From a virus (lineage: Duplodnaviria; Caudoviricetes), in the IMG/VR virus record IMGVR_UViG_3300033070_001161, positions 17,222 through 81,221 of that record: 64,000 nt of DNA; one strand, 5' to 3'. The first letter of the stretch is position 1. The number at the start of each line of letters is the position of its first letter. The notes below the pieces were generated by a model. It saw only the letters and a program-made list of their open reading frames with translations. It ran no database searches and was not told the DNA's origin. The position numbers and the translations under genes are program-made. Positions 38,426 through 58,204 of this stretch are shown here, piece by piece.

Positions 38426-38791
38426 TTATTTCCTTAAAAATTCATCCCAAAGTTCTTTTTCTTCGTCTACTTTTTCTTCCTTAATATGCTTTACTACACC
38501 ATGTTCATTTGGTTTTCCCCATTTACGTTTTTTAATTATTTCAAATTTATCACGTATAAGATTGACGATATCATCATACTCATATCCATTGATATGAGCA
38601 GACTCAAATAATAGTATAAAGCAATCAGCATATTCGTTTTTTATATTTTGGCTATTTGGAGAAGTTGATTTCAACTCCTCCATAAGCTCTACAATTTCCT
38701 CTTCTAAATGTTTCAATTTAGAAACATTTGAACCATGTGGAAAGGTTTCTCTTTGCCATTCTGTTATTTCTTTAAATAATTCACTAGTCAT
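38426..38791 (-). CDS. MazG-like nucleotide pyrophosphohydrolase (DUF550-like)
   Basis: WQRETF...KLKHLEEEIVEL...EYADCFILL...KRKW, the all-alpha NTP-PPase acidic motif. Confidence 0.8.
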   Translation of the reverse strand: MTSELFKEITEWQRETFPHGSNVSKLKHLEEEIVELMEELKSTSPNSQNIKNEYADCFILLFESAHINGYEYDDIVNLIRDKFEIIKKRKWGKPNEHGVVKHIKEEKVDEEKELWDEFLRK

Positions 38792-39833
38792 TTATTTCAA
38801 TATTTTTTGTTTTAATGTATTCTTTTACTTTTGTTTCGAGTTCTGCTAAATATTCAGGATTATCTTTAAGGAATTGTTTAACTCCATCTTCTCCTTGTAG
38901 TTTTGCCTCACCTACTGTATACCAAGCACCGCCTTTTGTGATTTCTCCCATTTCAAGAGCAAGATCAATTATTTCTTGAATTCTTTGAATTCCTTTACCA
39001 AACTCTACATAATATTCAAATGTCTTATAAGGAATACCAATTTTAGATTTTGTAATTTTACCTTTTACATGTATTCCATATGCACCATTTGCATCTTTGT
39101 CTACACTTTTACTTATTTCAATTTTAAGAGATTGTAGATATTTCCAAGCTTCTCCTCCGGGTTCTGTAAGAGGTACATATCCTCCAGGATTCATTCTATA
39201 TTGGTTAAGATATATAAAACCACTAGTACTGGCACTTAATGCTCCATTCACAGCCCTATACGCTTTAGCCATCATAGACGCTACTCCTGCAAGCCTACCT
39301 CCAGAAATACCATTTGCTATCTCTACAGCAGGAATTAATGCAGCAACACTATCCATTACAACCACACCATATAAATTACTTTGCAACACTTTACATAAAA
39401 ACTCAAGCCATTCTTCACCAGATAATAATTCTCTGTCTTTAATTCCTAAATGCTTGAGTAGTGATTCTCTATCAACAAGGTGTAATTTAGAAAGGTCTAC
39501 ACCTATTGACTGAGCATATTCAAGATCAATAGTTCCTTCAACATCAAGGAATGCACATAAATTACCCTTTTTTTGTTCTTCTGCTATTATATGTAAAGCC
39601 AGTGTCGTTTTACTACTACTTTCTTTACCAATAATACATGTACATTTACCACCTTTCGGTATGCCTAATCCACCTGTAGCAGCATCCAATGTAAGACTAC
39701 CTGTACTACACCATTCTTTCACTTCATCTACTTGTCTTTCAGATGCTTTGACCATTACACCTTTACCAAAAAGTTCTTCAAATTTTTTGAAGGTTTCATC
39801 AGCTTGTGCTTCATCAGTTCTCTTTTTTGCCAT
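38784..39833 (-). CDS. recA: RecA-family recombinase
   Basis: STGSLTLD.ATGG.GIPKG, Walker A variant GKESSSKTT, AFLDVEG, VVVMDSVAAL, YLNQYR, PGGEAWKY and KSKIG.P. Confidence 0.93.
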   Translation of the reverse strand: MAKKRTDEAQADETFKKFEELFGKGVMVKASERQVDEVKEWCSTGSLTLDAATGGLGIPKGGKCTCIIGKESSSKTTLALHIIAEEQKKGNLCAFLDVEGTIDLEYAQSIGVDLSKLHLVDRESLLKHLGIKDRELLSGEEWLEFLCKVLQSNLYGVVVMDSVAALIPAVEIANGISGGRLAGVASMMAKAYRAVNGALSASTSGFIYLNQYRMNPGGYVPLTEPGGEAWKYLQSLKIEISKSVDKDANGAYGIHVKGKITKSKIGIPYKTFEYYVEFGKGIQRIQEIIDLALEMGEITKGGAWYTVGEAKLQGEDGVKQFLKDNPEYLAELETKVKEYIKTKNIEIND

Positions 39834-41818: not shown

Positions 41819-42371
41819 TTGCTTTAGTTTTAATTTTTTCAATATCAAGAGTCTCTTTCTCCATATCTGGAATACTCCAGAGTTCTGCATCTTTATCCAA
41901 CTCTACATCAAGAAAAAGCTCTATCTCTTTTCTGAATTTTTCATTCTGAGAAAACACATCCCACTGAAAAGTAGGAATGTGTTTCATATATACCTTTACG
42001 GTTTTATCATAGCATCCTCTAATAAATTTAGAAAGTTTTGAATATTTACCTTGTTTAAATAGTTCAAAATCTTTCTGTAAATGATCTGGTATTTTATATA
42101 TTAATACCACATACCCCCCTGCATAGTCATAATCCTCTTTAAAATGAATATTTTCAAATTCTTGAGCATTTAAAAACTGCTCAAACTGTTCAAAATCATG
42201 AGGTTTGAATAATATATACATATTATCTCCAATATCCTCTTCTCTTAGTTTATCTTTAAGGTAGGAATTAATTAATCCGTATTCACTCTCAAGATGAGAG
42301 AAATGGGAGCCTGTTATAGGCTTTAATAAAAAAAGTGTACTGCAATTATATTTAAAAAGTTCGTCGATCAT
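41784..42371 (-). CDS. Hypothetical protein
   Basis: 195 aa ORF coupled to the exonuclease gene. Confidence 0.6.
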   Translation of the reverse strand: MIDELFKYNCSTLFLLKPITGSHFSHLESEYGLINSYLKDKLREEDIGDNMYILFKPHDFEQFEQFLNAQEFENIHFKEDYDYAGGYVVLIYKIPDHLQKDFELFKQGKYSKLSKFIRGCYDKTVKVYMKHIPTFQWDVFSQNEKFRKEIELFLDVELDKDAELWSIPDMEKETLDIEKIKTKANGKKSVTKSVR

Positions 42372-43501
42372 TAATTATAGTTTTCTAAAGCTATTATACC
42401 ATTTTGTTCGTATGCCGTTTTACTGATATTCCAAACTTTACTTTCATTAGCCCATATAATATTATCAACCAACTCTTTTATTCCTCTAAATTTAGAAGAA
42501 TTTATTGAAAATCCTTCCCAAGCATCATTCAAATGCTGTTCATTTAATCTATATATTAAGGGTCTTCTATTATTTTTGGAAGTATCTGCTGATATAAATT
42601 GATACGGTTCTAATTTATAATCTTTCAGTCCGTTGTTCATCATAAATGAAGTAATACCAATGCTGTACCAACCTGCCTGAATATAATATTTTTTCTTAAT
42701 ATAATTAAATGGAAATATTGTATTATCATATGTTGATTTTAAATCATATGGGAATACAGATTTCTTATTATGATCCACAATTAATAAATCAACTTCACAT
42801 TTACCCTTAATGCTACCATTTTCTCCTTTATAGATAAAATCTATAGGAAATTTTGGTAGTTTTTCAATACCGTCTACTTCATTAGTTAAATCCAACAAAG
42901 ATTTTGTAAAATCATCTTGGAGAAGGTATGACGAAATTTCTAACGCCCTAAGTTTAAGTCCTTCACTTACAACAAGTTTACCAATATTGTCTATTTTAGA
43001 CTTAAAATATTCAGCAGGACTCATGCCTGTTTTATTCTTAGTATTAAAATCCTCTATTGCCCACTCTACAGTTTTACCTTTATATTTACCAGCCCTCTGA
43101 ACGTTATCGAAAGCTTCTCTGAATCTAGGTTCAAACTCTTCTGTTATCTCACCATCTATTATTGTTCTCTTTGTTATTTTAAAGAGTTCATCGGCTAACA
43201 TAAATCCTTGTGCACTAGAAGAAGGTTCTCCTGTTAATAATGCATATCTATCACTAAATATTTGCTCAAATTCTGTAGCATCCCCTTTAGCTGTAAGAAG
43301 TATATCGTCAATTAGATTTCCTAATAGACTTGCACTTGTATCTTCATCCTCTTTTGGAAGTCCTAATATGAATTCTTCATAGAATTTTACAGGACTTTTA
43401 TCAAAAGTAACAATACTACTATAATTTAATGCCTCGATTTTACGATATTCTACATCAGGTGTAGCTATTTTTTCACGTTTTACTTCGCCTTTTGCTCCCA
43501 T
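42371..43501 (-). CDS. PD-(D/E)xK exonuclease (RecB/ExoVIII-like)
   Basis: LNYSSI, LGNLID..L, KGKCEVDLLIVD...YDLKST, YYIQAGWY. Confidence 0.8.
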   Translation of the reverse strand: MGAKGEVKREKIATPDVEYRKIEALNYSSIVTFDKSPVKFYEEFILGLPKEDEDTSASLLGNLIDDILLTAKGDATEFEQIFSDRYALLTGEPSSSAQGFMLADELFKITKRTIIDGEITEEFEPRFREAFDNVQRAGKYKGKTVEWAIEDFNTKNKTGMSPAEYFKSKIDNIGKLVVSEGLKLRALEISSYLLQDDFTKSLLDLTNEVDGIEKLPKFPIDFIYKGENGSIKGKCEVDLLIVDHNKKSVFPYDLKSTYDNTIFPFNYIKKKYYIQAGWYSIGITSFMMNNGLKDYKLEPYQFISADTSKNNRRPLIYRLNEQHLNDAWEGFSINSSKFRGIKELVDNIIWANESKVWNISKTAYEQNGIIALENYN

Positions 43502-43902
43502 CCTCTTGTTAATTTAGTGATTACTAATCTACTACGTCTTTTATTCTCTAATTTTACATTAGTTATTTGAAACGGAAGAGATATAATTTGCTCCCTATAA
43601 GAATAAAATGTACTATTACACCATTCCAAAAAACATTTCTTAGGTGTAGCTGGATTATCAATGGTTATACTTATAACGTTAGGATGATAGTATATACCAT
43701 TATTTTCTACAACAAGTACAGTACGAGTTTTTTTATATTTTTCGTATACTTCTCTAGCTAAAGCTTTTGTAAATTGATCTTTTTTACTACATTTTAAAAT
43801 AAAAATATGTAATTTAGTCGGAGATTCTTCATCTACTTCAGCAAAAATAGCTAATCTTTTTCCTTTTTCATCGTATTTTGATAAATTACTAAAATATTTC
43901 AT
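43480..43902 (-). CDS. Hypothetical protein
   Basis: 140 aa intact ORF. Confidence 0.55.
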   Translation of the reverse strand: MKYFSNLSKYDEKGKRLAIFAEVDEESPTKLHIFILKCSKKDQFTKALAREVYEKYKKTRTVLVVENNGIYYHPNVISITIDNPATPKKCFLEWCNSTFYSYREQIISLPFQITNVKLENKRRSRLVITKLTRGWEQKAK

Positions 43903-44372
43903 AGTTTTTTTAATTTTTCTTTGTCTTCTTTTGTTTTAGCATCATGACATGGATTACAAAGTACTTGTAAACCATCCACTTCACAAAATAATTTTTCCAC
44001 AAAATCTGGAAGATCAGATGCTTGTCTTAATATACCAGCAGGTTCTATATGGTCAACAGTGATATTCTTTCCAGAAAACCACTCTTTACATATATTACAT
44101 TGATACTCAAACTTTTGTCTCTTATTTGGACCAGAATAATTCCTTCTGGATTTATCTCGACACACTGATATTGGTTTCCAATATATTGTACGCCTACGTA
44201 AAGCCGATCTAATCATTGTCCAAAATTCAGATTCTGTCCAAGTGTTATGATTCCTAGTTCTAGGTAATCCTTTTCTCTTTTTTACAAGAGCTTTCTTTTT
44301 TACAGCTACAGCTCTTCGTTTTTTTGGTGAAGTATCACTTCTTACTTTGTTATTTTTTTGTTTTTTTCTCAT
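43899..44372 (-). CDS. HNH endonuclease (Zn-binding)
   Basis: YQCNIC...VDHIEP...LQVLCNPCHDAKT. Confidence 0.85.
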   Translation of the reverse strand: MRKKQKNNKVRSDTSPKKRRAVAVKKKALVKKRKGLPRTRNHNTWTESEFWTMIRSALRRRTIYWKPISVCRDKSRRNYSGPNKRQKFEYQCNICKEWFSGKNITVDHIEPAGILRQASDLPDFVEKLFCEVDGLQVLCNPCHDAKTKEDKEKLKKL

Positions 44373-44620
44373 GTTTCGTCTATTGATTTGATCTCAACAT
44401 CGAGTATACCATCATCACACGATTGTATATGATCCTCTATAAGTCCAGCTAGACTTTTTGCAGCATTATATAACTCGCTGGTTGTCTGCTCTTTAGATAA
44501 TGGACCTTTTACACAAACGCCTACTTTTACTTTTATAACTATATTAAATTCGCCATCTATATCGTTCCAAGGCGCACCGTAACTATTTTCTGTTAAATCT
44601 GGAGGAAGGTTACTACTCAT
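44369..44620 (-). CDS. Hypothetical protein
   Basis: Likely start MSSNLPPDL...APWND at 44620. Confidence 0.5.
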   Translation of the reverse strand: MSSNLPPDLTENSYGAPWNDIDGEFNIVIKVKVGVCVKGPLSKEQTTSELYNAAKSLAGLIEDHIQSCDDGILDVEIKSIDET

Positions 44621-44686
44621 AAGTACAAATTTAAAGAACCTAGAAACATTATCCAAATATTTCTAGGTTCTTGTTATAAAAATTGT

Positions 44687-45874
44687 TTAAAATGCTGACT
44701 CTTCAACAGTATTGGTTAAGTCACTAGAACCATCTGACAGATATACGGGTGTTGATCCACCATCTGCTGTATAAAATAATGTACTAGCAGTTATATTCAT
44801 AGTACCCGGACTACTATAATAAGTACTACTACCCGTAGTACTTCCAATAGAAACATTATTGAAACCAGTAGAAATTCCGTCTCGCAGAATACTTACATCC
44901 GAATCCGTTATTGCCGGATCAGTAGCTAATACAGGCGTATCTCCATCAACGTTATGTGTAGCTGTCATATATTCGTTAAATTCATCTATTAATTCTTCTA
45001 CCTTCTTCTGAATTTCTGTACGAGATTTTCCTTGTATTTTATAAAAATTAACAAAGCAACTATCTAATATAAATTTCTCAGGTACATTCCAAACTTGGTA
45101 TCCTTGATTGATGATATTATTTAATTTAGCTTTATGTGCTTTACGTACAGTTTGACTACCCTTAAAGGAGGGGTGATCTACATCATCATTTACAAGTACA
45201 ATCACCTTGGTAGGATCAATTTTACCTGTCATTAACATATGATATTTTTGATATATGTAATTTTCAGGTAACACTACAGATATAAATGTAGGTATAAATT
45301 TAGGATTATCATCATTTCTTAGATAATACAAAGAGTTATGTAAATAAGACAGTGTTATTAATCTTCCTGCATATAATGACCTATGTACATTAGATGCAAT
45401 AAAATCAGCAAAATCATATCCTCTGCTAGAGCCTATATAACTGTCAAGTAATATAAACTCATTATTATTTATATACTTATTTATAGCATCATTTGTTACG
45501 CCAAGTATTCGTTCTATAGACCCAAATCCGTGATTATGCATATTTCTAGCAAATAAATTCGGAATAAAATCATTTGGTAACTGTTTACCACAAAATTTAT
45601 CTGTCTGATTCATTACATATTTAATACTAGACACATCTAAAAAATCTATATCTGATGCAAATAAATAACTAAGTGGTATAAAATCAGTATATGGACAAAT
45701 AATATTGCTTCTATCATTTACTTCTATATGCTCGTTATATATTTGTAGACTATTTTGTATATTCATAAACATATCAATAAAAGAAGTTTCTTCTTTTTGA
45801 CGTTTAAAAAAACTAAGTCTCTCTTTAGGTTTTCTTCTTACAACAGGTTTTTCTAAAATGGCTTCACTTGACAT
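44687..45874 (-). CDS. Hypothetical protein coupled to the ThiF/E1 gene
   Basis: 395 aa ORF overlapping the E1 stop, with a Ser/Thr/Gly-rich C-terminal tail. Confidence 0.6.
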   Translation of the reverse strand: MSSEAILEKPVVRRKPKERLSFFKRQKEETSFIDMFMNIQNSLQIYNEHIEVNDRSNIICPYTDFIPLSYLFASDIDFLDVSSIKYVMNQTDKFCGKQLPNDFIPNLFARNMHNHGFGSIERILGVTNDAINKYINNNEFILLDSYIGSSRGYDFADFIASNVHRSLYAGRLITLSYLHNSLYYLRNDDNPKFIPTFISVVLPENYIYQKYHMLMTGKIDPTKVIVLVNDDVDHPSFKGSQTVRKAHKAKLNNIINQGYQVWNVPEKFILDSCFVNFYKIQGKSRTEIQKKVEELIDEFNEYMTATHNVDGDTPVLATDPAITDSDVSILRDGISTGFNNVSIGSTTGSSTYYSSPGTMNITASTLFYTADGGSTPVYLSDGSSDLTNTVEESAF

Positions 45875-46590
45875 GATTCTACATCTTTAAGTTTATAATC
45901 AAAAATAGGAAGATACATTCTTTGATGAAAAGGTACATCCCTAAATTCCATAGCTAATTTACAGTTTGTAAGAAAGTTACATAATACAGATGTTATCATT
46001 CCTCCTATCATCATTGCGCTGAATGTAGTTTGTTTATTTGTACAATCCAGATCAGGAACATCTTTGTCATCAAAAAGCCATTTTTCTTGATATTCTTTTA
46101 TAGCCTCCTTATTATCATAATCCACTGCAAATATTTCTAATGTTTCTAATAATAATCTACCATCTATAAAAATAGCAGGTAATGAAGGTTCATATTTTTT
46201 CCTTACATCTACGCAAGACATCCAAGAATCAAATGCGTCTTTTCTAGTTTTCATGTTATCCAAAGCACTTATACAAACATTATCCATCTGTTCAGTTTCT
46301 TCAAAATAATCATCTATTGTATATATGTCATTATTACAACCAAGTTCAATTATATTACTTTTTACACATACCACTTTTGGTTTACCTACATCAGATTTTT
46401 TGTAAAATTGACCTCCTTTTACGTTAGTTTCATCTACAACATCTGGGTCAATAATTGTAATAGTATGACCTATTCTGGATAATGATAATGCTGTCCAGCT
46501 ACCTATGCCTCCAGCACCAATTAATGTAATATCTGTTTGTTGATCTGCCCAATCAGCACCACTCCATCTAGTTCCTACAGTAACGCTCAT
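45853..46590 (-). CDS. ThiF/MoeB/E1-like ubiquitin-activating enzyme
   Basis: LIGAGGIGSW, IDPDVVDETN, GKPKV, ALDNMKTRK, FIDGRL, and a candidate catalytic Cys in DLDCT (46042-46044). Confidence 0.9.
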   Translation of the reverse strand: MSVTVGTRWSGADWADQQTDITLIGAGGIGSWTALSLSRIGHTITIIDPDVVDETNVKGGQFYKKSDVGKPKVVCVKSNIIELGCNNDIYTIDDYFEETEQMDNVCISALDNMKTRKDAFDSWMSCVDVRKKYEPSLPAIFIDGRLLLETLEIFAVDYDNKEAIKEYQEKWLFDDKDVPDLDCTNKQTTFSAMMIGGMITSVLCNFLTNCKLAMEFRDVPFHQRMYLPIFDYKLKDVESCQVKPF

Positions 46591-46592
46591 AA

Positions 46593-47894
46593 TTATATAA
46601 TTTTATTTACTAAATTTATTTCTTCCGAGATAGTTGCTATCATTTCTGATACCAATCTTGATCTAAATGAATATGGATAGAGATAATCTTTTGTGATTTC
46701 TAATAATTCCACATAATCATCTACATTTTTGTATAGATGAATTACATCAAAATGTTCTGATAGAAGTGTCTGAAAATCAAGAATATACGCATCTAAAGCA
46801 TCTCTTGTAAGAAGACCTTTATCTTGCTCTACAATTTTATCTATACAATCTCTGTAATCATCACCTAAATATGTAGATTCAAGTATGGAATTTAATAAAG
46901 CTTTTGCATGCCTTATTTCAAAAGTTGGTTTCTTTTTTTTATTCTTTTTCTGATCTTTTTCAAATACATCTTTTGCTGCTTGTTCTTGTTCCCACCATTC
47001 AGCATCAGTCATCTCCATCACTTTTTTCTGTTTTTTCTTACTACCATCTTTTTCATATTCCTGAACAAGATTATATTCTTTATCTTCTTGATCGCTAAAG
47101 TCAGGAAACATACTTCCTTGCATAAGCTTTTTTTGATACCCTCCGTTATATCCACCTTGATAATAAGGATATGTATATTTTTTCTTATACTCTTCCTGTT
47201 TTGCTTTAGCTTCTGCTTCTATTGCTGCTTTTACTATATTATATCTATCTTCAAAATCCTTATCTACAGATATATTTCTTTCAACTTCAATAGTACAATC
47301 CATTACAACAAGCACCTCGTTGTCCTTTTCCCCAGATAACGTTAAAGGTTCATAACCATCTGCATTGTTTACAAAATGTAAACTTGTTCCTTTATCTGCT
47401 TCTTTTTTACCTTTAAAAGCAACTTTAGCACACCAATTACCATCAAAATTCACAATAAGCATAAGAAAATAATTACTTACCAATGCTCTATCTTCAAGAT
47501 TTTCCCAATCCGTACCACTAAAGAATGTGTTCATGCGGTGGTGTGTATGGACATGATGCAATTTTTGTTTACCTTCAAGAATATCAGGAAATTTATCATA
47601 TAGTTCTATAATATCTGAACTTTTGAATCCACCTTTTCCTACTTCATATCCTGTAAATCCAGCAGTACCTATATCTGCAAGAAACATATCTTCTGCAATA
47701 ATAGTCCATTTATCAAGATCATTTATTGTTCCTTCTTCTCTTGTTATAAGTTCACCACTCCATTCAAATGCTCCCACCTTTGAATGCAAAAAATCAATTT
47801 TATTTACAAGAGATTCTTTAATTAATAATTTAGGCTTGTTGGAAAGAGGAAACCTCTCCAAAGATTTTTTTATGATTCCTTTGCTTGTACTCAT
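46593..47894 (-). CDS. JAB/MPN-domain metallopeptidase (deubiquitinase-like) with a long C-terminal extension
   Basis: FEWSG (catalytic Glu) and HHVHTHHRMNTFFSGTD, matching the JAMM motif HxHx7Sx2D. Confidence 0.82.
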   Translation of the reverse strand: MSTSKGIIKKSLERFPLSNKPKLLIKESLVNKIDFLHSKVGAFEWSGELITREEGTINDLDKWTIIAEDMFLADIGTAGFTGYEVGKGGFKSSDIIELYDKFPDILEGKQKLHHVHTHHRMNTFFSGTDWENLEDRALVSNYFLMLIVNFDGNWCAKVAFKGKKEADKGTSLHFVNNADGYEPLTLSGEKDNEVLVVMDCTIEVERNISVDKDFEDRYNIVKAAIEAEAKAKQEEYKKKYTYPYYQGGYNGGYQKKLMQGSMFPDFSDQEDKEYNLVQEYEKDGSKKKQKKVMEMTDAEWWEQEQAAKDVFEKDQKKNKKKKPTFEIRHAKALLNSILESTYLGDDYRDCIDKIVEQDKGLLTRDALDAYILDFQTLLSEHFDVIHLYKNVDDYVELLEITKDYLYPYSFRSRLVSEMIATISEEINLVNKII

Positions 47895-49077
47895 TATGTG
47901 TTTTTTTTAAATTAAATAAATCAAATTGTTCACTTATAACTCTATGATATAATGCTACTACTGATGGGTCTAGTTTTACATGACTTTGAGGATTAGAATC
48001 GTCATACACTTTAGCTCTTAGCACTTCACCTTTCCAATCTAAAGTGTTTCTATATAAATCTTTATTTATACTCTTTATTGAATGCTCTAATTCTTGTTGG
48101 CTATATCCAGAATTACTTCTTAGTTCAGAATGTTTATCAAAATAATCGTATAAATCATCACTATCCTTTAGTGCTAATTTATTATTTAAATAATTCCAAC
48201 GACTTTTATCTATCCCTGAAATTATTTTTGCTAGATGCGGAGCACCTGTTTCACCATTAAAAGAACGAGAATATTCTATACTATTTATATATCTGTATGG
48301 GCCACCTTCAATACTTTCCCATTTTAAATAATTTTCTAAAGACATAAACATTAAATTCCAACAATCTTCTGTTTTCTCAATTTTTGTATCCATTATTAAC
48401 CTACTAAAATCGCTACTACCAAGACAAAAATCAGAAAAACTAGCTGGACTTCTTCCTGAAAAATGGCTATGTCCATAATTAGATTCCCATTCTCGAAGAG
48501 AAATTGTTAATCTTGTTCCACTAACAATAATACTTAAATCGGCTAAACTAGAAGAAGACAAAATATGAAATCTAACATATAAATCTTTTATAACATGATG
48601 ATCCTTTCTACTATTGGTTATATTTATAACAGGAAAATGAATATAAATATCATATTTGTAATTATTGAAAAAATTAGATATATCAGATTCTTTAATATAC
48701 ACCCTATCTTCTCCAAATATATCGTTTACTATCTGTAAAATATCGGAAGGATGTACTAATTTTCCTTTTTTTCTATATAACTCTATACGCTCTTCAGCTT
48801 CTTTATATACTGCTTTTTCACATTCAGCTATTTTATCTTTATCTCTTATTATTTCCTTAATTGCAGAATATTCATAAACACTAGTAATATAATTACTTCC
48901 TATTTGAATATTAAATACACATGACTGATTTGAAAACGCATTTATTTTATAAACAACGTCTTTTTTAAGATTATCTTTATTAAGAGTACTGTTTATAAAA
49001 GCGTCAGTAAGAGTTACATATATCTTACCATTAAAAGCACCCTGTTCTGAATAATCTAAAGTTTTTATTTGTCCCAT
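47830..49077 (-). CDS. Putative prokaryotic E2-like (UBC-fold) conjugating protein
   Basis: IYIHFPVINI...DLYVRF...SGTR.T......YGHSHF.G....FSDFCLGSS, with a Cys at 48424-48426 in the E2 H-P-N...C-like position, followed by GGPY. Gene context supports the call. Confidence 0.6.
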   Translation of the reverse strand: MGQIKTLDYSEQGAFNGKIYVTLTDAFINSTLNKDNLKKDVVYKINAFSNQSCVFNIQIGSNYITSVYEYSAIKEIIRDKDKIAECEKAVYKEAEERIELYRKKGKLVHPSDILQIVNDIFGEDRVYIKESDISNFFNNYKYDIYIHFPVINITNSRKDHHVIKDLYVRFHILSSSSLADLSIIVSGTRLTISLREWESNYGHSHFSGRSPASFSDFCLGSSDFSRLIMDTKIEKTEDCWNLMFMSLENYLKWESIEGGPYRYINSIEYSRSFNGETGAPHLAKIISGIDKSRWNYLNNKLALKDSDDLYDYFDKHSELRSNSGYSQQELEHSIKSINKDLYRNTLDWKGEVLRAKVYDDSNPQSHVKLDPSVVALYHRVISEQFDLFNLKKTHNEYKQRNHKKIFGEVSSFQQA

Positions 49078-49087
49078 AATATATTTT

Positions 49088-49125
49088 AAAAATAAAAAAA
49101 GCGGAAGACATTATATCTTCCGCTT
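49088..49125 (-). terminator. Intrinsic terminator after the Ubl gene
   Basis: Perfect 10 bp stem AAGCGGAAGA/TCTTCCGCTT (49099-49125) with a 7 nt loop, then a T-rich tail on the - strand. Confidence 0.85.
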
Positions 49126-49147
49126 AAAATTGATTTTTTAATAAAAA

Positions 49148-49579
49148 TTACATCATAGAACGAGCTTCACTTAAAGCTTCGTTACATTGAGCACATTGCT
49201 CTTCACTCAAATCTACACCAAAGAAATCTTCAATTACTTCAACGATCTCTGATTTTAAATCATTCACTTCATCAGAAGTGGCTTTTGCAGCAGCCAAAGC
49301 AATTGCTTCAGCAATATCCGCACCAAGTTTCCTTGCTTGGCTTTCTGTCATACCTGCTTTATTTTTTGTAGGAATCAGATAAATTCTGAATTCACCATCA
49401 GGAAGAGCTGCGTCATCCCTTGTAAGGGTAACGTTACCTGGTTTCAATACTGCTTCTACATCACCTGTAATAAGGTCTGAAATTTGTGTTTTAAACTCAC
49501 CCCAAGTTGTTGCTGAGGTTTCTACTTGTTTTGCTTTGTTTGATGCTGCACTTGCTACGATTACTTTTCTTGTTGACAT
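49148..49579 (-). CDS. Ubiquitin-like (beta-grasp) protein with a C-terminal helical extension
   Basis: RKVIVAS...VETSATTWGEFK...L.....LPDGEFRIYLIPTKNKAG ends at Gly76 (49352-49354) and is followed by 67 more residues. It heads the E2-JAB-E1 cluster. Confidence 0.72.
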   Translation of the reverse strand: MSTRKVIVASAASNKAKQVETSATTWGEFKTQISDLITGDVEAVLKPGNVTLTRDDAALPDGEFRIYLIPTKNKAGMTESQARKLGADIAEAIALAAAKATSDEVNDLKSEIVEVIEDFFGVDLSEEQCAQCNEALSEARSMM

Positions 49580-49597
49580 AAAGTTTTAATTTTTGTG

Positions 49598-49605
49598 TAA
49601 ATATA
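49598..49605 (-). promoter_or_regulatory. Possible -7 box for the Ubl gene
   Basis: TATATTTA (one mismatch) 18 nt upstream of the Ubl ATG, in an 85 nt intergenic gap. Confidence 0.4.
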
Positions 49606-49664
49606 CACGGTTAGTTATTAAATAAAAAATATTTTTTAAGGATTACGGTGTTAAAAACGGATTA

Positions 49665-49874
49665 TTAAAAAATCTCTGATTGTTTTAATAATTTTATATT
49701 ATTTGTTTCTTGTTGAGAATCAGCGTTATATCTTTTTTGAAGTTGTTTTATTAAAGAAATAATATCTGATTCTGGCCCTTTAAGTTCTTGTAAATCATTA
49801 ATTACCCACCAAAAAGCCCGATGTTTAAATAAATCGGCTTTAGCTTCATTTATATCTTGTTCTCTGGTTTTCAT
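49665..49874 (-). CDS. Small hypothetical protein
   Basis: 69 aa ORF coupled to UDG. Confidence 0.5.
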   Translation of the reverse strand: MKTREQDINEAKADLFKHRAFWWVINDLQELKGPESDIISLIKQLQKRYNADSQQETNNIKLLKQSEIF

Positions 49875-50656
49875 TAAAATGGAAGAGATTTATCTAAAAA
49901 TTCATCATAATCCCAATATATTTCTATATTGTTATTAGCTTTAAGAATTTTAGCTGTTTTTGAAAATACGTTATCTGCAAGCCATTCTTCATTTCTATTT
50001 CTTGCAGCAAAAGAGGGATGATCTGTTTCTAATATGTAATTACCCAATGGATTTATGTATTTTTTGAGCTTTTTAGCATACGCACCCATTAATATATACA
50101 CTATACCTGTAGTGCTGTATAATACATTCTGAAATAAATGTTTTTGAAAAGATTCCCATAAATTAGCTGTAGGAAACACATCTTTACTTAATTTTAGATG
50201 GCTTTCTATTCTGTTTTTTTCAACAGTGAGACTTGTATTTAGAAGAAGTATTCCTTGTTCAGAAAGAAAATCTAAGTCTGTTGAGTATTTTAATTTCTCT
50301 AATTTTAAGTCATTTTGTATTCCATGCCATAGATATTTTAAAGATGGTTGCATCTCTATATCGCCAGTGTAGGAGTTACTAAAAGCTAAACCATCAGCTA
50401 TAATTTTTCCATTTTTCACTGTAGAATATGGTTCCATTCCTACAATTACAACACTTAGATCAGTGAGTGTACATTTTGAAAATGCACGAAATGTATCAGG
50501 TGGTGCAGGGAATATATCTATTCCTTTATTACTACGAAATTTCAAATACTGATATAGATTATAGGCATCCTCACCTTCAAAAAATTCCTTCATTGTAGGC
50601 CACCAAGATTCATGAAACTTTGGTTCAAATTTGCTTATTTCCAGCTTATTACTCAT
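49874..50656 (-). CDS. ung: Uracil-DNA glycosylase (family 1-like)
   Basis: IFP...TFRAF, VVIVGMEPY (canonical GQDPY), ADGLAFS, QGILLLNTSLTV, LMG.YA and HPS. Confidence 0.85.
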   Translation of the reverse strand: MSNKLEISKFEPKFHESWWPTMKEFFEGEDAYNLYQYLKFRSNKGIDIFPAPPDTFRAFSKCTLTDLSVVIVGMEPYSTVKNGKIIADGLAFSNSYTGDIEMQPSLKYLWHGIQNDLKLEKLKYSTDLDFLSEQGILLLNTSLTVEKNRIESHLKLSKDVFPTANLWESFQKHLFQNVLYSTTGIVYILMGAYAKKLKKYINPLGNYILETDHPSFAARNRNEEWLADNVFSKTAKILKANNNIEIYWDYDEFLDKSLPF

Positions 50657-51636
50657 ATTACTCCTTTATTAATTAAACATTGTTTCCATGCATCCTTTCC
50701 AAATCTTTTTTCTAAACTATAAGGATCGTTTATATCTGGAAGTAAAGATTTTGGAGGATTTACCCAATTCCATCCATATTCTCGTGTAAGAAGAACTGAT
50801 TGCTCAACTCCTTGAGGATCAGAGCCAAATGCCACCCATATATTATCTGCAAGATTATTAATTTGATCTGCTACAGACATTGTTATTTTTGCACTTTCAT
50901 TTTGTGTTGCTATAACACATTCTGTAAATACAGAAGTACAAAGTAAGTCTTTCATGCTTTTTATAAGAACAAGCTTACTACAATGTCCTATATTATTAAT
51001 ATTCCATAGATAGTTATTAGGTACATTTCCTCTAAATCTCTCACCTTTCTCTCTTTGTGGAAAATATATCTTCACTTTATCAATATCTTCGGCATAATAT
51101 GCAAATACCACCTCATTATCACCAATTCTTATTCTTCGTCTATTAATGGCTAACTCTTTGACAGCGAATGTGTTATATTTCCTTGCGTGTTGTTCATCTA
51201 CATCTGTACCTTCCCAGAATTGATAATGTTCTTTCCTCCACTTTCTTTCAGAAAATCCAATATGTACCTCACTAGGTTCATACACTGGAGCTTTATCTAT
51301 AATTTGTACAGGACAATATTCTTTTGTTGTTTGAGATATTCCCAAATCCTGACATATCTTATCAATAGCTTCTCTATGAGATAAAGAATACTTCTTTTTT
51401 ACAAATTTTAAAGCATCACCAGCATCATCATTTGAGAAATCTTTATACATCCACACATTATCTCTAAAAAAGATAGTAAATGAAGGATGGCGATCTCGCC
51501 TAAGAGGACTTGGAAAAGCCCTACTCACTGGAAATTTACCAATTTCAATAAAAAATACATCCCATCCACCACTAGTGATAGACAGGATGTATTCCCATGT
51601 TATAGGAGATTGTTTTATTTCTCCTTTTGCTCCCAT
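50653..51636 (-). CDS. DNA primase (DnaG/Toprim-like, crAss type)
   Basis: SPLRRDRHPSF...YKDF...GD..FV N-terminal module, KIYFP, KSMKD and FGSDPQG Toprim-like motifs. Confidence 0.8.
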   Translation of the reverse strand: MGAKGEIKQSPITWEYILSITSGGWDVFFIEIGKFPVSRAFPSPLRRDRHPSFTIFFRDNVWMYKDFSNDDAGDALKFVKKKYSLSHREAIDKICQDLGISQTTKEYCPVQIIDKAPVYEPSEVHIGFSERKWRKEHYQFWEGTDVDEQHARKYNTFAVKELAINRRRIRIGDNEVVFAYYAEDIDKVKIYFPQREKGERFRGNVPNNYLWNINNIGHCSKLVLIKSMKDLLCTSVFTECVIATQNESAKITMSVADQINNLADNIWVAFGSDPQGVEQSVLLTREYGWNWVNPPKSLLPDINDPYSLEKRFGKDAWKQCLINKGVI

Positions 51637-51637
51637 T

Positions 51638-52042
51638 TTAAATGTATTTTTTTACCATTTTCTGAATAAATGAATCAATATCTTTTATATCACTATCAAT
51701 AGTACCAATATGAATATCGTCTATTATAGTAGATAAGCTAGGTACGGGTTTTATATAACTAGTCTGTAAATATAGCTTAATTTTGGAAATAAGACTATTA
51801 TCAAATGATTGATAATATGTAATCTTATAATCATCTTTAAACTTTTCAGTTAGCATTTTTTTTAAACCTTGTATCTCTTCATCTATTTTACTTTTTTGAC
51901 GAACTAATTCACTAATTCTATCAATTCTTTTGGTTAGAAAATCTTCGTCCTTTTTTGGAAGTTGTTTCCTTGGGGATTCCGACAAAAGACGATCATGTAT
52001 CCTTTTAGCTAATGCTTTTGTTTGATTACTATTTAATTTCAT
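51638..52042 (-). CDS. Hypothetical protein
   Basis: 134 aa intact ORF. Confidence 0.55.
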   Translation of the reverse strand: MKLNSNQTKALAKRIHDRLLSESPRKQLPKKDEDFLTKRIDRISELVRQKSKIDEEIQGLKKMLTEKFKDDYKITYYQSFDNSLISKIKLYLQTSYIKPVPSLSTIIDDIHIGTIDSDIKDIDSFIQKMVKKYI

Positions 52043-52054
52043 AATATTTTAATT

Positions 52055-52975
52055 TTAATAATCATCTCCTGTTTCAGATACAGGTTGTTTTGTTGTTTGA
52101 CTAGCAGCTACATCATCAGCCGGATCATATTCAGATACAGGTGCTAATGGAGCATATCCACTTGGGGGATAGTTTTTATGTGTTTCTTTATATTTATTCC
52201 AACGAGTTGTCATAAATCCTTTAGGAAATTGACAATTATTGTTAATAAATTTAACACTGTCTTTGCTCAATGTAGGCACTCCAAAATTATTGTTTGGAAT
52301 CCATAATTTTTCATAATGTTCTGTACCTTCTTTAGAAGTAGCTACTTGTAACATTACGACAAAGGGACGGAATAATTCACTTGTTAAATCTGCATAAAAT
52401 TCTTGTACATTTCCAGTGAACAATTTTTTGTAATTATAAGAAAGTTCAGCCGTAGGTTTATCATAATCTAAAGCCAATGCCTCTCTCAAAAATCGAACAA
52501 GCATATCTTCACCTTTCAAACATTTTCTAAATGTTTTCTTATCATCTGTACTCTCATACCTTTTCTCATCATCATTCCATTTTTGGAAATATTTAAACCA
52601 ATCAGGAAGTTCGTCTTCAGATGGTGCTTTTACCAACTGGCCCACTTGGTTTACAAATACATACAAATCGGGATTACCATCTTTACCCTCAAGAATAGCA
52701 GGTGTATTCTCTAAAAAAATACGATGTTTACGAGGTGTGCTATCTTTAACATTTATTCGATAATAAATATCAAAGTTAAGCTTATCATCACCTGCATCAT
52801 TTTTACCTGTATACTTTATGTCTTCACTTTCATCGGTGAGATCATAATTATACATTTTAGCCTTTTCCTCTTTTGTTGGATTGATTGCTACAATCTCCTC
52901 AACTAGGGCTAATCCTGCATACACTTTAAATCCATCTAACGCCTTACTTTGTTTTACATCTCCTTTTGCGCCCAT
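52055..52975 (-). CDS. Putative single-stranded DNA-binding/annealing replication protein
   Basis: Lies between the AAA ATPase and primase. Has YAGLA...AINPT..E, VNQVG, and an acidic-aromatic tail (ETGDDY). Inferred from context. Confidence 0.5.
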   Translation of the reverse strand: MGAKGDVKQSKALDGFKVYAGLALVEEIVAINPTKEEKAKMYNYDLTDESEDIKYTGKNDAGDDKLNFDIYYRINVKDSTPRKHRIFLENTPAILEGKDGNPDLYVFVNQVGQLVKAPSEDELPDWFKYFQKWNDDEKRYESTDDKKTFRKCLKGEDMLVRFLREALALDYDKPTAELSYNYKKLFTGNVQEFYADLTSELFRPFVVMLQVATSKEGTEHYEKLWIPNNNFGVPTLSKDSVKFINNNCQFPKGFMTTRWNKYKETHKNYPPSGYAPLAPVSEYDPADDVAASQTTKQPVSETGDDY

Positions 52976-52999: not shown

Positions 53000-53665
53000 T
53001 TATGAATAATATTCGTTTATTTTATCAACAACAATTTGTAAGTTGTTGTCTATCTTTAAATCTGTAAACATATCAATAGGTGATTTTGCAGGATATTTCT
53101 TATATCTATTTGTAGCAAAGAAATATTCAGTTTTATCTCCTTTTGATTCAGTGAGCGCATATAACACCACTGTAAATAATCCTTCCATCTTGATTTGAGA
53201 GTCAATCATTTTACCAGCAGTTTTCAGCTTGTAATTTACTACTTCTCCGCTATCTTCTACTTCTTCTAAATGTGAAAAATAGAAAATATTCAAATCTTCT
53301 CTCAACTTTTTAGCTTCTTGGATAAGATTTACCATATCCTGAGCCATCACTGAAAACTTAGTGTATCCTACTTCAGTGGCTTTAGATACAAGATTAAAAG
53401 CCATGATGTAGTTACCATCTTCAATAATAACATTTTTGATGTGTGTAGCTTTTTCAGAAATCGTCCTTAACAATTTCAAAATTTCTTTGGCATCACTTAT
53501 ATCTTTATAGTTCTTATTTTCAGAATTATAAAGTTTACCACTACCTCTAAAAGGTAATTCCTTTCCAGCTACGTTAATAATGTACGTACTCTTAGAATCT
53601 AAATGTTTGATACTTGTGGACTTACCACTACCAGTATCTCCGACAATTGCAATTACTTTACTCAT
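53000..53665 (-). CDS. AAA-family ATPase (Sak4/AAA_24-like)
   Basis: IAIVGDTGSGKSTS, KELPF, IIEDGNY, KTAGKMID...EGLFTVVL, AKSP..MF. Confidence 0.85.
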   Translation of the reverse strand: MSKVIAIVGDTGSGKSTSIKHLDSKSTYIINVAGKELPFRGSGKLYNSENKNYKDISDAKEILKLLRTISEKATHIKNVIIEDGNYIMAFNLVSKATEVGYTKFSVMAQDMVNLIQEAKKLREDLNIFYFSHLEEVEDSGEVVNYKLKTAGKMIDSQIKMEGLFTVVLYALTESKGDKTEYFFATNRYKKYPAKSPIDMFTDLKIDNNLQIVVDKINEYYS

Positions 53666-53688
53666 TATATTTTTATTTTTGTACAAAT

Positions 53689-56672: not shown

Positions 56673-57596
56673 AAGAACTTTGATATTTCTAAAATACTTA
56701 TGACCTGTATCTGGCGATTTAAACGTTGATACATCACCATAAAATTTATCATTTGTATTATATCTCAAAGGATCAAATACACTTATTACTACATCTGCTG
56801 CCTCCGCTGTTGTACCACTTTCTTTAGCGTTATCTAAATGTGGCTCAAAGCTATCTAATTTTGTATAAATTGGACTACTTAAATCCCTATTCAACTGATT
56901 TACAGCTATTTCCGACCAACCAAGATGATCCCTGAAATATTGAAAATTCTCAACAGTACGATCAATTGCTTGTTTTTTAGTAGGATAATCTTTTCCCACT
57001 TTTACTAATCCAAAGTGATCACCTGCTACAATAACATCTTCGTTCGGATCAGAGGGAATATATATTTTTTTAAATTCACTCACTTTTTCCTCTTTTCCGT
57101 GTGTTTCTGCATATTCCTTACCTATTCTAAATATATCATTAGGACTTCTACCCCCTTCATATAGGTCTATTCTGCTTTCAAGAAATACAAAGTAATCCTC
57201 GTATTGATCTATAAGTGATAGGGCTTCATCTGTTAGCTTATCTCCATACCAGTTCATCATTGTGTGCATTGGAATTATCTTTCCTGTATCAAGAAATATA
57301 CGCCTTATGAGCCATTTAGCATGGATATAGGTTTTACTTCTTTCCATTGAAAAAAGTATGTATTTTAGCTTCTTATCAGTGTCTTTTACTTTAGATAAAG
57401 CTTCTAAAGGGTTGAGAATGAATGCATCATATAACAAACTACTCTTTCCTGATCCACTAGACCCCATAATTACATAGAACATCTTTTTTCTCAAAGAGAT
57501 ATATCTATCCAATCTAGGTAATCCCAAAGAATATCCTTTATTTTTACCATCTATACCATCTTTTATAGCCTGTTTTAAATCTCCAAAAAAACTCAT
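56673..57596 (-). CDS. DnaB-like replicative helicase, exon 1
   Basis: VIMGSSGSGKSS, FSMER, VAGDHFGL, IAVNQLNR, AEAADVVIS and NIKVL. The spliced product is 361 aa. Confidence 0.88.
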
Positions 57597-58204
57597 ATTT
57601 CAAAGTCTCCTCCACTCTTAGCGGTTTTTTGTTTTTCTTTATACAATTTAATATAAGGCTCAAAATATCTTTCTCTTAGATATCTTTCAGAATTTGGAAT
57701 AAAACTCACCTGATTTTCTCTACGTTTTAAACTTAATTCCATAGCCGTTTGTAAGTGATGTTTTGTTGCCAATATAACATCGTCAGGATCGAATTCTGAA
57801 GAACACATTACATTAAATAATCGCTTACATTCATCTTTTTTAATACGTTTGTTTTGTGTTCCTTTAAAGTCAGTATTTTGAATTGTAAAATTATTTGTAG
57901 CGGGATAAGTTTCCCACCACTCATCGAATTTCTCACCATTCACTCTAGGTCTTTTTCTGGTTTTTACTTCTGTAACCACCTCATTTTTCATAGATTCATA
58001 TAATTCTTCTCCATATGAAGTAAGATTATTATGTATATCTATATATCCTTTACGCTGAAGACGCTGAATGAATGGTAGAAATTCCTCATTATCAATATCT
58101 TGTTCCTCTTTAATCATTTCAAGAATGAACATGCAATCAAGAGGTATTTTCTGTTTACATAGTGACGAATAGTGTGCTTGTGTAAAATTAAATAGTTTAG
58201 TCAT
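57593..58204 (-). CDS. Putative replication initiator/helicase-loader-like protein
   Basis: N-terminal wHTH-like LQRKGYI and FDEWWETYP...NSERYL. Coupled to the helicase gene. Confidence 0.5.
   Translation of the reverse strand: MTKLFNFTQAHYSSLCKQKIPLDCMFILEMIKEEQDIDNEEFLPFIQRLQRKGYIDIHNNLTSYGEELYESMKNEVVTEVKTRKRPRVNGEKFDEWWETYPATNNFTIQNTDFKGTQNKRIKKDECKRLFNVMCSSEFDPDDVILATKHHLQTAMELSLKRRENQVSFIPNSERYLRERYFEPYIKLYKEKQKTAKSGGDFEI

What the first reader, a model, noticed from the sequence alone, without database searches (positions are those of the whole stretch)
43478..52975. Three replication/recombination proteins share the N-terminal peptide MGAKG(E/D)(V/I)K
Seen: the exonuclease (43501) starts MGAKGEVKREK, the primase (51636) MGAKGEIKQSP, and the putative SSB/annealing protein (52975) MGAKGDVKQSK. 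The codons differ at synonymous sites (GGA/GGC), and the genes are kilobases apart and otherwise unrelated. No other ORF in the window starts this way. Inference: a short linear docking or modification tag that recruits these proteins to a common partner, like a PIP box. Its conserved lysines could also be acceptor sites for the Ubl system encoded between these genes. A shared RNA operator at the start codon is an alternative.
Basis: partly seen in the sequence, partly recalled or inferred. Interest (0 to 1): 0.72.

Follow-up and report, generated by a model that had tools for sequence, protein, structure and literature searches.

The report
Shared N-terminal tag on replication proteins
In this crAss-like phage the probable DNA-coating protein (SSB), the primase and a RecE-type exonuclease all begin with the same eight-residue floppy peptide. 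In related phages the peptide changes in step in these proteins, so it is most likely a shared docking tag of the DNA-copying machinery whose binding partner is still unknown.

Summary
Three minus-strand genes start with M-G-A-K-G-[ED]-[VI]-K: exonuclease 42371-43501, primase 50653-51636 and an SSB-like gene 52055-52975. The DNA pattern hits 3 times, against 0 in shuffles. The proteins share nothing else.

The peptide lies in a low-confidence, unstructured N-terminus in the two proteins modelled (SSB-like and exonuclease). It is an island of conservation in orthologues and changes in step within each genome:
- Variants K-G-T, K-E-K, V-K-G and I-K-G-K each recur across the three families of one genome.
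- Among 26 distinct crAss-like SSB/primase pairs the tags match within a genome even where they are quite different (M-Q-L-K-K; an acidic, Lys-free M-N-L-E-N-L-E type). No permutation of 5000 reached the observed score.
- The same peptide is written with different synonymous codons and the upstream DNA is unrelated. Selection therefore acts on the peptide, not on an RNA operator or by recent gene conversion.
- The lysines are not conserved, and the tag persists in relatives with no ThiF gene within 10 kb. The Ubl-acceptor idea is not supported.

Best reading (about 0.6): a co-evolving short docking tag. The receptor is not identified. By parsimony it may be the core of the SSB-like protein, by analogy with the T4 gp32 N-terminal cooperativity peptide.

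The scan has noted shared docking peptides in other phages before, but not this one.

The parts
52055..52975 (-). SSB-like protein, 306 aa (homologue of crAss001 Gp81, which is annotated as hypothetical). It has a beta-rich core, a disordered N-terminal tag and a disordered acidic C-tail ending in Tyr.
   Evidence: Translation. AlphaFold model pLDDT 76, with residues 1-14 and 268-306 below 50. Weak OB-like fold hits at Z 4.8-5.7. Family of 979 clusters whose best 150 end in Y (111) or F (23), some with D-D-L-P-F as in bacterial SSB. hhalign to crAss001 Gp81 gives 98.9%. No Pfam or PDB sequence match.
52952..52975 (-). Codons 1-8 of the SSB-like gene: the N-terminal tag.
   Evidence: G5 is conserved in at least 90% of 15 orthologues, and the following linker is variable.
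52058..52174 (-). Disordered acidic C-terminal tail of the SSB-like protein (residues 268-306), tipped by D-D-Y. This is a second, separate docking-type tail.
50653..51636 (-). DnaG-type primase, 327 aa.
   Evidence: Pfam Zn_ribbon_DnaG 26.3 bits against a cut-off of 24.9. PHROG 12622 DNA primase, E 2e-22. Orthologues.
51613..51636 (-). Codons 1-8 of the primase: the N-terminal tag.
   Evidence: Tag variants in orthologues down to about 38% identity, and absent from the most distant ones.
42371..43501 (-). RecE/Cas4/AddB-type PD-(D/E)XK exonuclease, 376 aa.
   Evidence: Pfam PDDEXK_1 is weak. PHROG 412 exonuclease VIII. Model pLDDT 89. Foldseek: 3l0a E 8.6e-6, RecE 3h4r E 1.6e-5. Invariant E236, D238, D253, K255.
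43478..43501 (-). Codons 1-8 of the exonuclease: the N-terminal tag. It is part of a 17-residue appendage before the conserved core.
   Evidence: Residues 1-8 have pLDDT below 50 and residues 1-17 are coil. Six orthologues lack the appendage and start at the core.

Best explanation
The eight-residue N-terminus is a short linear motif selected at the peptide level. It is a flexible tag that gives the SSB-like protein, the primase and (in this clade) the RecE-type exonuclease access to one and the same binding site in the phage replication/recombination machinery. That site co-evolves with the tag. What is shown: the tag exists; it sits in a low-confidence, unstructured terminus in the two proteins modelled; it is conserved; it is confined almost entirely to these three families; and it changes in step within genomes while its codons drift. 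What is inferred: that it works by docking. The receptor is unidentified. My leading candidate (about 0.3) is the folded core of the SSB-like protein itself. On that model the tag is first of all the SSB's self-association (cooperativity) peptide, as in T4 gp32. Primase and exonuclease carry a copy so that they can plug into SSB-coated single-stranded DNA.
For: (1) Three exact copies, against 0 expected.
(2) The tag is unstructured in both proteins modelled: SSB-like residues 1-14 and exonuclease residues 1-8 have pLDDT below 50, attached to confident cores. Some exonuclease and primase orthologues lack it and start at the conserved core.
(3) It is conserved in all three families down to about 37-40% core identity.
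(4) It is specific. Of 17 first-ATG ORFs with K-G in the first six residues, among 472 ORFs from 10 sequences (the 81-kb virus record and nine loci of relatives), 15 belong to these three families.
(5) It co-varies. Eight genomes with all three proteins share 3.75 of 8 identical residues within a genome, against 2.63 +/- 0.2 after permuting genomes (0 of 20000 permutations reach it). For 26 distinct SSB/primase pairs from IMG/VR and other assemblies the mean best window score is 18.7, against 11.0 +/- 0.86 (0 of 5000). These pairs include chemically different tags.
(6) Selection is on the peptide. Identical tags use different synonymous codons; in L038 all four codons after the ATG differ. K/R exchanges go through unrelated codons, and the upstream DNA is unrelated.
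(7) The N-terminal pattern M-x-[IV]-x-G-x-x-[KR]-E is the consensus of the whole SSB-like family, so the tag is old in that family.
(8) Polymerase type (PolA or PolB) and the subtypes of helicase, 203-aa protein and AAA_24 ATPase change among tag-bearing genomes. That leaves the SSB-like core as the most constant possible receptor. This is inference.
(9) Precedent: the gp32 N-terminal basic peptide binds the core of the neighbouring gp32 (PMC12893549).
Against: No binding was shown. The one co-folding job gave no verdict. The identity of the 306-aa protein as an SSB rests on its tail, its gene neighbourhood and weak OB-like fold matches only. Some pairs match poorly (L033, L044, L049). In L006 the primase tag is degenerate. 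In a close relative the exonuclease has K4Q, so single positions are tolerant. The permutation tests do not correct fully for relatedness of the genomes. A host receptor, or a function other than docking, is not excluded.
Confidence: 0.6

Rival explanations
1. Shared N-terminal stability or processing signal. The tag would be a degron or a cleavage or trimming site read by a protease or adaptor (host ClpXP/ClpS-type or phage-encoded), so that the three proteins are matured or removed together during infection.
For: The tag is always anchored at the extreme N-terminus. That position suits recognition by N-end or N-motif readers. Relatives encode a ClpS homologue or proteins with sub-threshold M42/M20 peptidase similarity near the exonuclease.
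Against: The genome with the ClpS gene is the one that lacks the K-G tag. The distance from Met1 to the conserved Gly varies from 1 to 4 residues, and residue 2 is sometimes small (Met removed) and sometimes large (Met kept). Lineage-specific co-variation over chemically different tags is hard to reconcile with a conserved host protease.
Confidence: 0.12
2. Nucleic-acid-binding arm. The tag would be a basic N-terminal arm that adds DNA affinity to three DNA-handling proteins, with no protein partner.
For: In this window the tag holds two or three Lys, and all three proteins act on DNA.
Against: The tag also holds a conserved acidic residue. Related lineages carry neutral or acidic tags without Lys that still match between SSB-like protein and primase. 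A non-specific arm would not co-vary residue by residue.
Confidence: 0.05
3. RNA-level element. The shared 5' coding sequence would be a translational operator or initiation enhancer, in the manner of T4 RegA or gp32 targets.
For: The element overlaps the start codon of three genes of one functional module. Two of the three copies contain AAAGGAGA.
Against: The upstream 24-30 nt are unrelated. Third codon positions differ within and between genomes. Identical peptides are written with different codons. K/R exchanges use AAA, AGA or CGT. Leaders in the window are A-rich and lack a Shine-Dalgarno sequence.
Confidence: 0.04
4. Acceptor site for the ThiF-linked Ubl-like system encoded between the genes.
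For: A ThiF-family gene lies at 45853-46590 (Pfam E 3e-17), between the tagged genes. The tag in this window has lysines.
Against: No Lys position is invariant: it is Q, T, S or G in orthologues. Lys-free tags exist. L008, L009, L023 and L024 keep the tag but have no ThiF-family gene within 10 kb.
Confidence: 0.03
5. No function: the similarity is kept by repeated copying (gene conversion) between the 5' ends of the genes.
For: The SSB-like and primase genes are near neighbours in all genomes examined.
Against: Synonymous sites differ between copies within a genome. The exonuclease gene lies 8-10 kb away. The tag is an island of conservation next to variable linkers, which indicates purifying selection.
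Confidence: 0.03

Closest known systems
T4 gp32 N-terminal domain (LAST motif, K-R-K-S-T, residues 3-7)
   Same: A short, mostly basic peptide at the extreme N-terminus of a phage ssDNA-binding protein, separate from the folded core. In gp32 it binds the core of the neighbouring molecule and gives cooperative binding (PMC12893549). In both cases the SSB also has an acidic C-terminal tail for other partners.
   Different: There is no sequence or fold relationship to gp32. The composition differs: Gly-centred, with an acidic residue. In T4 the peptide is not known to be shared with primase or an exonuclease (my knowledge). Self-association was not tested here.
Acidic, Phe-tipped C-terminal tails of T7 gp2.5 (SSB) and gp4 (primase-helicase), which share docking sites on gp5 polymerase (established knowledge)
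   Same: An SSB and the primase-bearing protein of one phage carry the same short flexible terminal peptide, read by a common receptor. Here the SSB-like protein also has an acidic, aromatic-tipped C-tail of that kind.
   Different: The shared peptide here is N-terminal and not acidic in this clade. It is also carried by a recombination exonuclease. The polymerase is an unlikely receptor because PolA and PolB alternate among tag-bearing genomes.
Bacterial SSB C-terminal tip (D-D-D-I-P-F) and clamp-binding or PIP-box motifs (established knowledge)
   Same: The principle is the same: a short linear motif in a disordered end acts as an address label for many genome-maintenance proteins.
   Different: In those systems one hub carries the peptide (SSB) or the pocket (clamp). 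Here the SSB-like protein is itself one of the tagged clients. The sequence has no Q or aromatic signature.
Shared docking peptides noted earlier in this scan (SP6-like phages: N-terminal acidic-aromatic tag on SSB-like protein and flap exonuclease; another crAss-like phage: acidic Phe-tipped tails)
   Same: The same kind of evidence: unrelated replication proteins, a floppy terminal peptide, and changes in step across relatives.
   Different: A different peptide, different carriers (primase included) and a different phage group. Those notes are unchecked AI notes and were not re-tested here.

Membership tests
Short linear docking motif (SLiM) shared by replisome proteins | Lies in an intrinsically disordered terminus outside the folded domain. 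| tested here: met
   pLDDT below 50 for SSB-like residues 1-14 and exonuclease residues 1-8. Orthologues without the appendage start at the core. The primase was not modelled.
Short linear docking motif (SLiM) shared by replisome proteins | An island of conservation, shared by unrelated proteins and co-varying with lineage. | tested here: met
Short linear docking motif (SLiM) shared by replisome proteins | Binds a defined receptor site. | not testable with these tools
   No receptor was identified. This needs peptide pull-down, ITC or a validated co-fold.
PIP box / beta-clamp-binding motif | Consensus Q-x-x-[LIVM]-x-x-[FY]-[FY] or Q-L-[SD]-L-F. | tested here: not met
   The tag has no Gln or aromatic residue in this window.
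T4 gp32-type N-terminal cooperativity peptide | (K/R)3(S/T)2 composition at residues 3-7 of an SSB homologous to gp32. | tested here: not met
   The composition differs. No gp32 match by sequence or fold. The functional analogy remains open.
Ubl/ubiquitin-type acceptor site | A conserved acceptor lysine, and co-occurrence with the E1-like enzyme. | tested here: not met
   Lys positions are variable and Lys-free tags exist. No ThiF gene within 10 kb in four tag-bearing relatives. Whole genomes of those relatives could not be searched.
Translational operator RNA (RegA-type) | Nucleotide conservation beyond what the peptide requires, extending into the leader. | tested here: not met
SSB (OB-fold ssDNA-binding protein with a partner-binding tail), for the 306-aa protein | Disordered acidic C-tail with an aromatic tip. 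| tested here: met
   D-D-Y tip. Y or F tip in 134 of 150 family representatives, some with D-D-L-P-F.
SSB (OB-fold ssDNA-binding protein with a partner-binding tail), for the 306-aa protein | OB fold and ssDNA binding. | tested here: inconclusive
   Best fold matches: 6jde_B Z 5.7 and the OB protein PrgE Z 4.8. Foldseek PDB and BFVD gave nothing at E <= 0.001. There are weak DUF669 leads. Binding is not testable here.
RecE/Cas4/AddB-type PD-(D/E)XK exonuclease | The fold, plus the D...(D/E)-x-K catalytic residues. | tested here: met
   Foldseek 3l0a E 8.6e-6 and RecE E 1.6e-5. Invariant D238, D253, K255.
DnaG-type primase | CHC2 zinc ribbon, and the family profile. | tested here: met
   PF01807 at 26.3 bits, above the 24.9 cut-off. 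PHROG 12622 E 2e-22.

The most novel reading that the evidence does not exclude
The tag is the self-association (cooperativity) peptide of a previously unannotated SSB family of crAss-like phages. Primase and exonuclease have copied it so that they can insert into, or cap, the SSB array on single-stranded DNA. Because tag and receptor drift together, each lineage would have its own private replisome address code, which would also insulate co-infecting phages from one another.
Probability: 0.3. Interest if true: 0.75.

Novelty: new variant of a known kind. Interest (0 to 1): 0.58.

Why it matters
Crassvirales are among the most abundant phages of the human gut, and their replication machinery has not been studied biochemically. 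The survey I read (PMC7886860) lists no SSB among their conserved replication genes.

The tag does four things:
- It links three proteins into one physical module.
- It helps to identify a large unannotated family (979 clusters; crAss001 Gp81) as the likely SSB.
- It offers a simple handle for finding the hub of the replisome: a 10-residue peptide available in many natural variants, including in the culturable phage crAss001.
- It predicts true start codons.

Lineage-specific co-variation of a docking tag is also a natural experiment on how peptide-receptor pairs drift.

Tried and rejected
- **Co-folding.** I folded exonuclease residues 1-30 together with the SSB-like core, the 203-aa protein and the DnaB-like helicase. 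The tool's verdict was 'no answer', so it counts neither for nor against binding.
- **Fold of the SSB-like protein.** Foldseek against PDB and BFVD gave nothing at E <= 0.001. PDB profile searches with 15 and with 126 sequences gave nothing relevant. Pfam on 126 members found no family. A gp2.5 or gp32 relationship could therefore not be shown.
- **Close DNA relatives** among GenBank phages: none. tblastn of the SSB-like protein: none.
- **Coordinated loss.** Loci around exonucleases that lack the tag (L021, L022, L029) did not reach the primase and SSB-like genes, except in one genome (L021 with L025). There none of the three proteins has the K-G tag. One case is too few to use for finding the receptor.
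- **ThiF in whole records of relatives:** those records are not held.
- **Helicase as a fourth carrier, rejected.** Its start resembles the tag, but that stretch is part of a helix conserved in all helicase orthologues.
- **The 433-aa protein at 46593-47894 as a fourth carrier, rejected.** Its orthologues start differently.
- **The 395-aa protein of the window as an orthologue of the peptidase-like proteins of L008 and L024, rejected**.
- **N-myristoylation-type reading of M-G, rejected.** Residue 2 is A, S, I or V in orthologues.
Full report
**1. The observation**

The window's minus-strand early block carries three genes whose first eight codons read M-G-A-K-G-[ED]-[VI]-K. They are the exonuclease (42371-43501), the primase (50653-51636) and a 306-aa protein (52055-52975).
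- The degenerate DNA pattern has 3 hits, against 0 in 100 shuffles. There is no further hit in the 81-kb virus record that holds the window.
- The copies differ at synonymous sites.
- The 24 nt upstream of each start are unrelated.
- The proteins have no similarity after residue 10.

**2. What the three proteins are**

- *Exonuclease.* It gives a confident model (pLDDT 89). The model matches RecE, Cas4-family and AddB-type PD-(D/E)XK nucleases, and the catalytic D, D and K are invariant.
- *Primase.* It passes the DnaG zinc-ribbon threshold and matches a primase PHROG.
- *The 306-aa protein.* It has no Pfam, PHROG or PDB sequence match.
  - Its model (pLDDT 76) has a beta-rich core between a disordered N-terminus (1-14) and a disordered acidic C-tail (268-306).
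  - Fold matches are only weak: an OB-containing repair protein at Z 5.7 and the OB protein PrgE at Z 4.8.
  - A profile search finds 979 clusters. Of the best 150, 111 end in Tyr and 23 in Phe, and several carry the bacterial SSB tip D-D-L-P-F.
  - The gene always follows the Sak4-like AAA_24 ATPase and precedes the primase.
  - I therefore call it SSB-like. This is an inference.
  - crAss001 Gp81, annotated as hypothetical, is a homologue.
- *The genome.* Gene order and the best annotated relatives are those of crAss-like phages. Leaders are A-rich and lack a Shine-Dalgarno sequence.

**3. The tag in relatives**

- Orthologues of all three families keep an N-terminal tag down to about 37-40% core identity.
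- It is an appendage. Six exonuclease orthologues and the most distant primases lack it and begin at the conserved core.
- In the SSB-like alignment, Gly5 is conserved in at least 90% of sequences while the next ten residues vary.
- The tag is specific. Of 472 first-ATG ORFs from 10 sequences (the 81-kb virus record and nine loci of relatives), 17 have K-G within the first six residues, and 15 of those belong to the three families.

**4. Co-variation**

Within a genome the three proteins carry the same variant:
- K-G-[ED]-h-K here (h = V or I);
- K-G-T in L023 and in L024;
- K-E-K, without the Gly, in L007;
- V-K-G in L008;
- K-G-K-Q in L009;
- no K-G at all in any of the three in L025/L021.

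A permutation test on eight genomes gives 3.75 against 2.63 +/- 0.2 identical residues of eight (0 of 20000).

A scan of IMG/VR with the SSB-like profile gave 44 more loci. ORFs assigned by HMM show that SSB-like and primase N-termini match within a genome even where the tag is entirely different. Examples are M-Q-L-K-K in both, I-G-G-h-K-R in both (h = V or I), V-T-G-[KR]-V-K in both, and an acidic Lys-free M-[ND]-L-x-N-[LI]-[EK] type. In crAss001-type genomes, Gp81 read from Met9 and the primase Gp80 match.

For 26 distinct pairs the mean best 7-residue score is 18.7, against 11.0 +/- 0.86 after permuting genomes (0 of 5000). In a within-locus scan the best match to the SSB tag is usually the primase, plus the exonuclease in this clade. 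The tests do not fully remove phylogenetic relatedness, but related lineages in the null make them conservative.

**5. Level of selection**

Identical tags are encoded differently. In L038 all four codons after the ATG differ between the two genes, and other pairs differ at Gly, Val, Lys and Thr third positions. K/R exchanges use AAA, AGA or CGT. Upstream regions are unrelated. This supports selection on the peptide. It argues against an RNA operator and against recent gene conversion.

**6. The Ubl idea**

A ThiF-family gene does lie between the tagged genes. Against an acceptor role:
- The Lys before Gly is Q in a 93%-identical relative's exonuclease, T in the L006 primase, and Q, S or G in many SSB-like proteins.
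- Some lineages have tags without any Lys.
- L008, L009, L023 and L024 keep the tag with no ThiF-family gene within 10 kb. Their whole genomes could not be searched.

**7. Mechanism**

The signature is that of a docking motif read by a receptor that drifts with it: a disordered terminal island of conservation, shared by unrelated proteins of one process, co-varying across lineages and selected as a peptide. I rate this at about 0.6.

*The receptor.* Polymerase type alternates (PolA in L006 and L007; PolB here and in L024). The helicase, the 203-aa protein upstream of it and the AAA_24 ATPase occur in divergent subtypes among tag-bearing genomes. The N-terminal pattern is the consensus of the whole SSB-like family. 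The most economical model is that the tag binds the SSB-like core. It would be the SSB's own cooperativity peptide, as in T4 gp32 (PMC12893549), borrowed by primase and exonuclease. This is inference (about 0.3). A host receptor or another phage protein is not excluded.

**8. Comparison and novelty**

The principle is known from the T7 gp2.5 and gp4 tails, the bacterial SSB tip and clamp-binding motifs. The scan has noted shared docking peptides in other phages. Those notes are unchecked and concern other peptides.

New here:
- an N-terminal tag, non-acidic in this clade, carried by the SSB-like protein itself together with the primase and a RecE-type exonuclease;
- its spread and striking co-variation across crAss-like phages;
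- the implied identification of an unannotated SSB family. The survey PMC7886860 lists no SSB among conserved crAss replication genes.

I file it as a new variant of a known kind.

**9. Limits**

No binding data exist, and the single co-folding job gave no verdict. Only two structures could be predicted, so the primase N-terminus was not modelled. SSB function is inferred. Pairing of some proteins to genomes rests on equal contig lengths, but the statistics use only loci whose DNA was read.

Noticed in passing
window 49874-50656 (UDG); L024:11984-12736 and 12739-15009; L025:12210-12671 and 14813-15469; L023:19942-20688: Several unrelated proteins of this phage group end in an L-P-F, P-P-F or Y-P-F tip, like the bacterial SSB C-terminal tip. 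They include the UDG, a 756-aa HATPase_c_3 protein and others. This may be a second, C-terminal address code, separate from the N-terminal tag.
   Followed up: no
window 52055-52975 and the family at large: The 306-aa protein belongs to a very large unannotated phage family: 979 clusters at 50% identity, no Pfam family, and 'hypothetical protein' in all GenBank crAss-like records hit. Its acidic Tyr- or Phe-tipped tails suggest it is the missing SSB of crAss-like phages.
   Followed up: partly
L026:10858-11778 (crAss001 Gp81): The tag-like sequence of crAss001 Gp81 begins at the ninth codon, a Met, and matches the start of the primase Gp80. The annotated start may therefore be eight codons too far upstream.
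   Followed up: no
window 57593-58204 and orthologues (alignment A3): The 203-aa protein that overlaps the start of the DnaB-like helicase gene keeps a conserved C-terminal tip of acidic, aromatic and Ile residues in all eight genomes. It could be a further docking tail on a possible helicase loader or replisome organiser.
   Followed up: no
window 52506-52520 (SSB-like residues 153-157): The core has an internal L-K-G-E-D, with Gly155 and Glu156 invariant in 126 family members. It resembles the K-G-[ED] of the N-terminal tag, which recalls the paired N-terminal and internal LAST motifs of gp32. It may be chance.
   Followed up: no
window 52970-52972 and 43487-43489: The rare Gly codon GGC makes up 3% of Gly codons in 18 genes of the window, yet it fills 2 of the 6 Gly positions in the three tags. 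The common codon GGT (45%) fills none.
   Followed up: no
L008:13788-15008 and L024:17910-19118: Where this window has the ThiF-linked cluster, two relatives have 402-406-aa proteins with sub-threshold M42/M20 aminopeptidase similarity. These are not orthologous to the window's 395-aa protein.
   Followed up: partly
L021:2555-2824 = L025:18666-18935: One relative encodes a ClpS homologue next to an AAA fragment. This is the genome whose three proteins lack the K-G tag.
   Followed up: no
window 38784-39833: A RecA/UvsX-like recombinase (PHROG 97, E 3e-62) is encoded in addition to the Sak4-like ATPase at 53000-53686. The phage therefore carries two RecA-superfamily recombination proteins.
   Followed up: no
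L038:808-1170: In the lineage with the M-Q-L-K-K tag, a third ORF (120 aa, unknown function) starts with a similar peptide. Other lineages may therefore tag other proteins.
   Followed up: no
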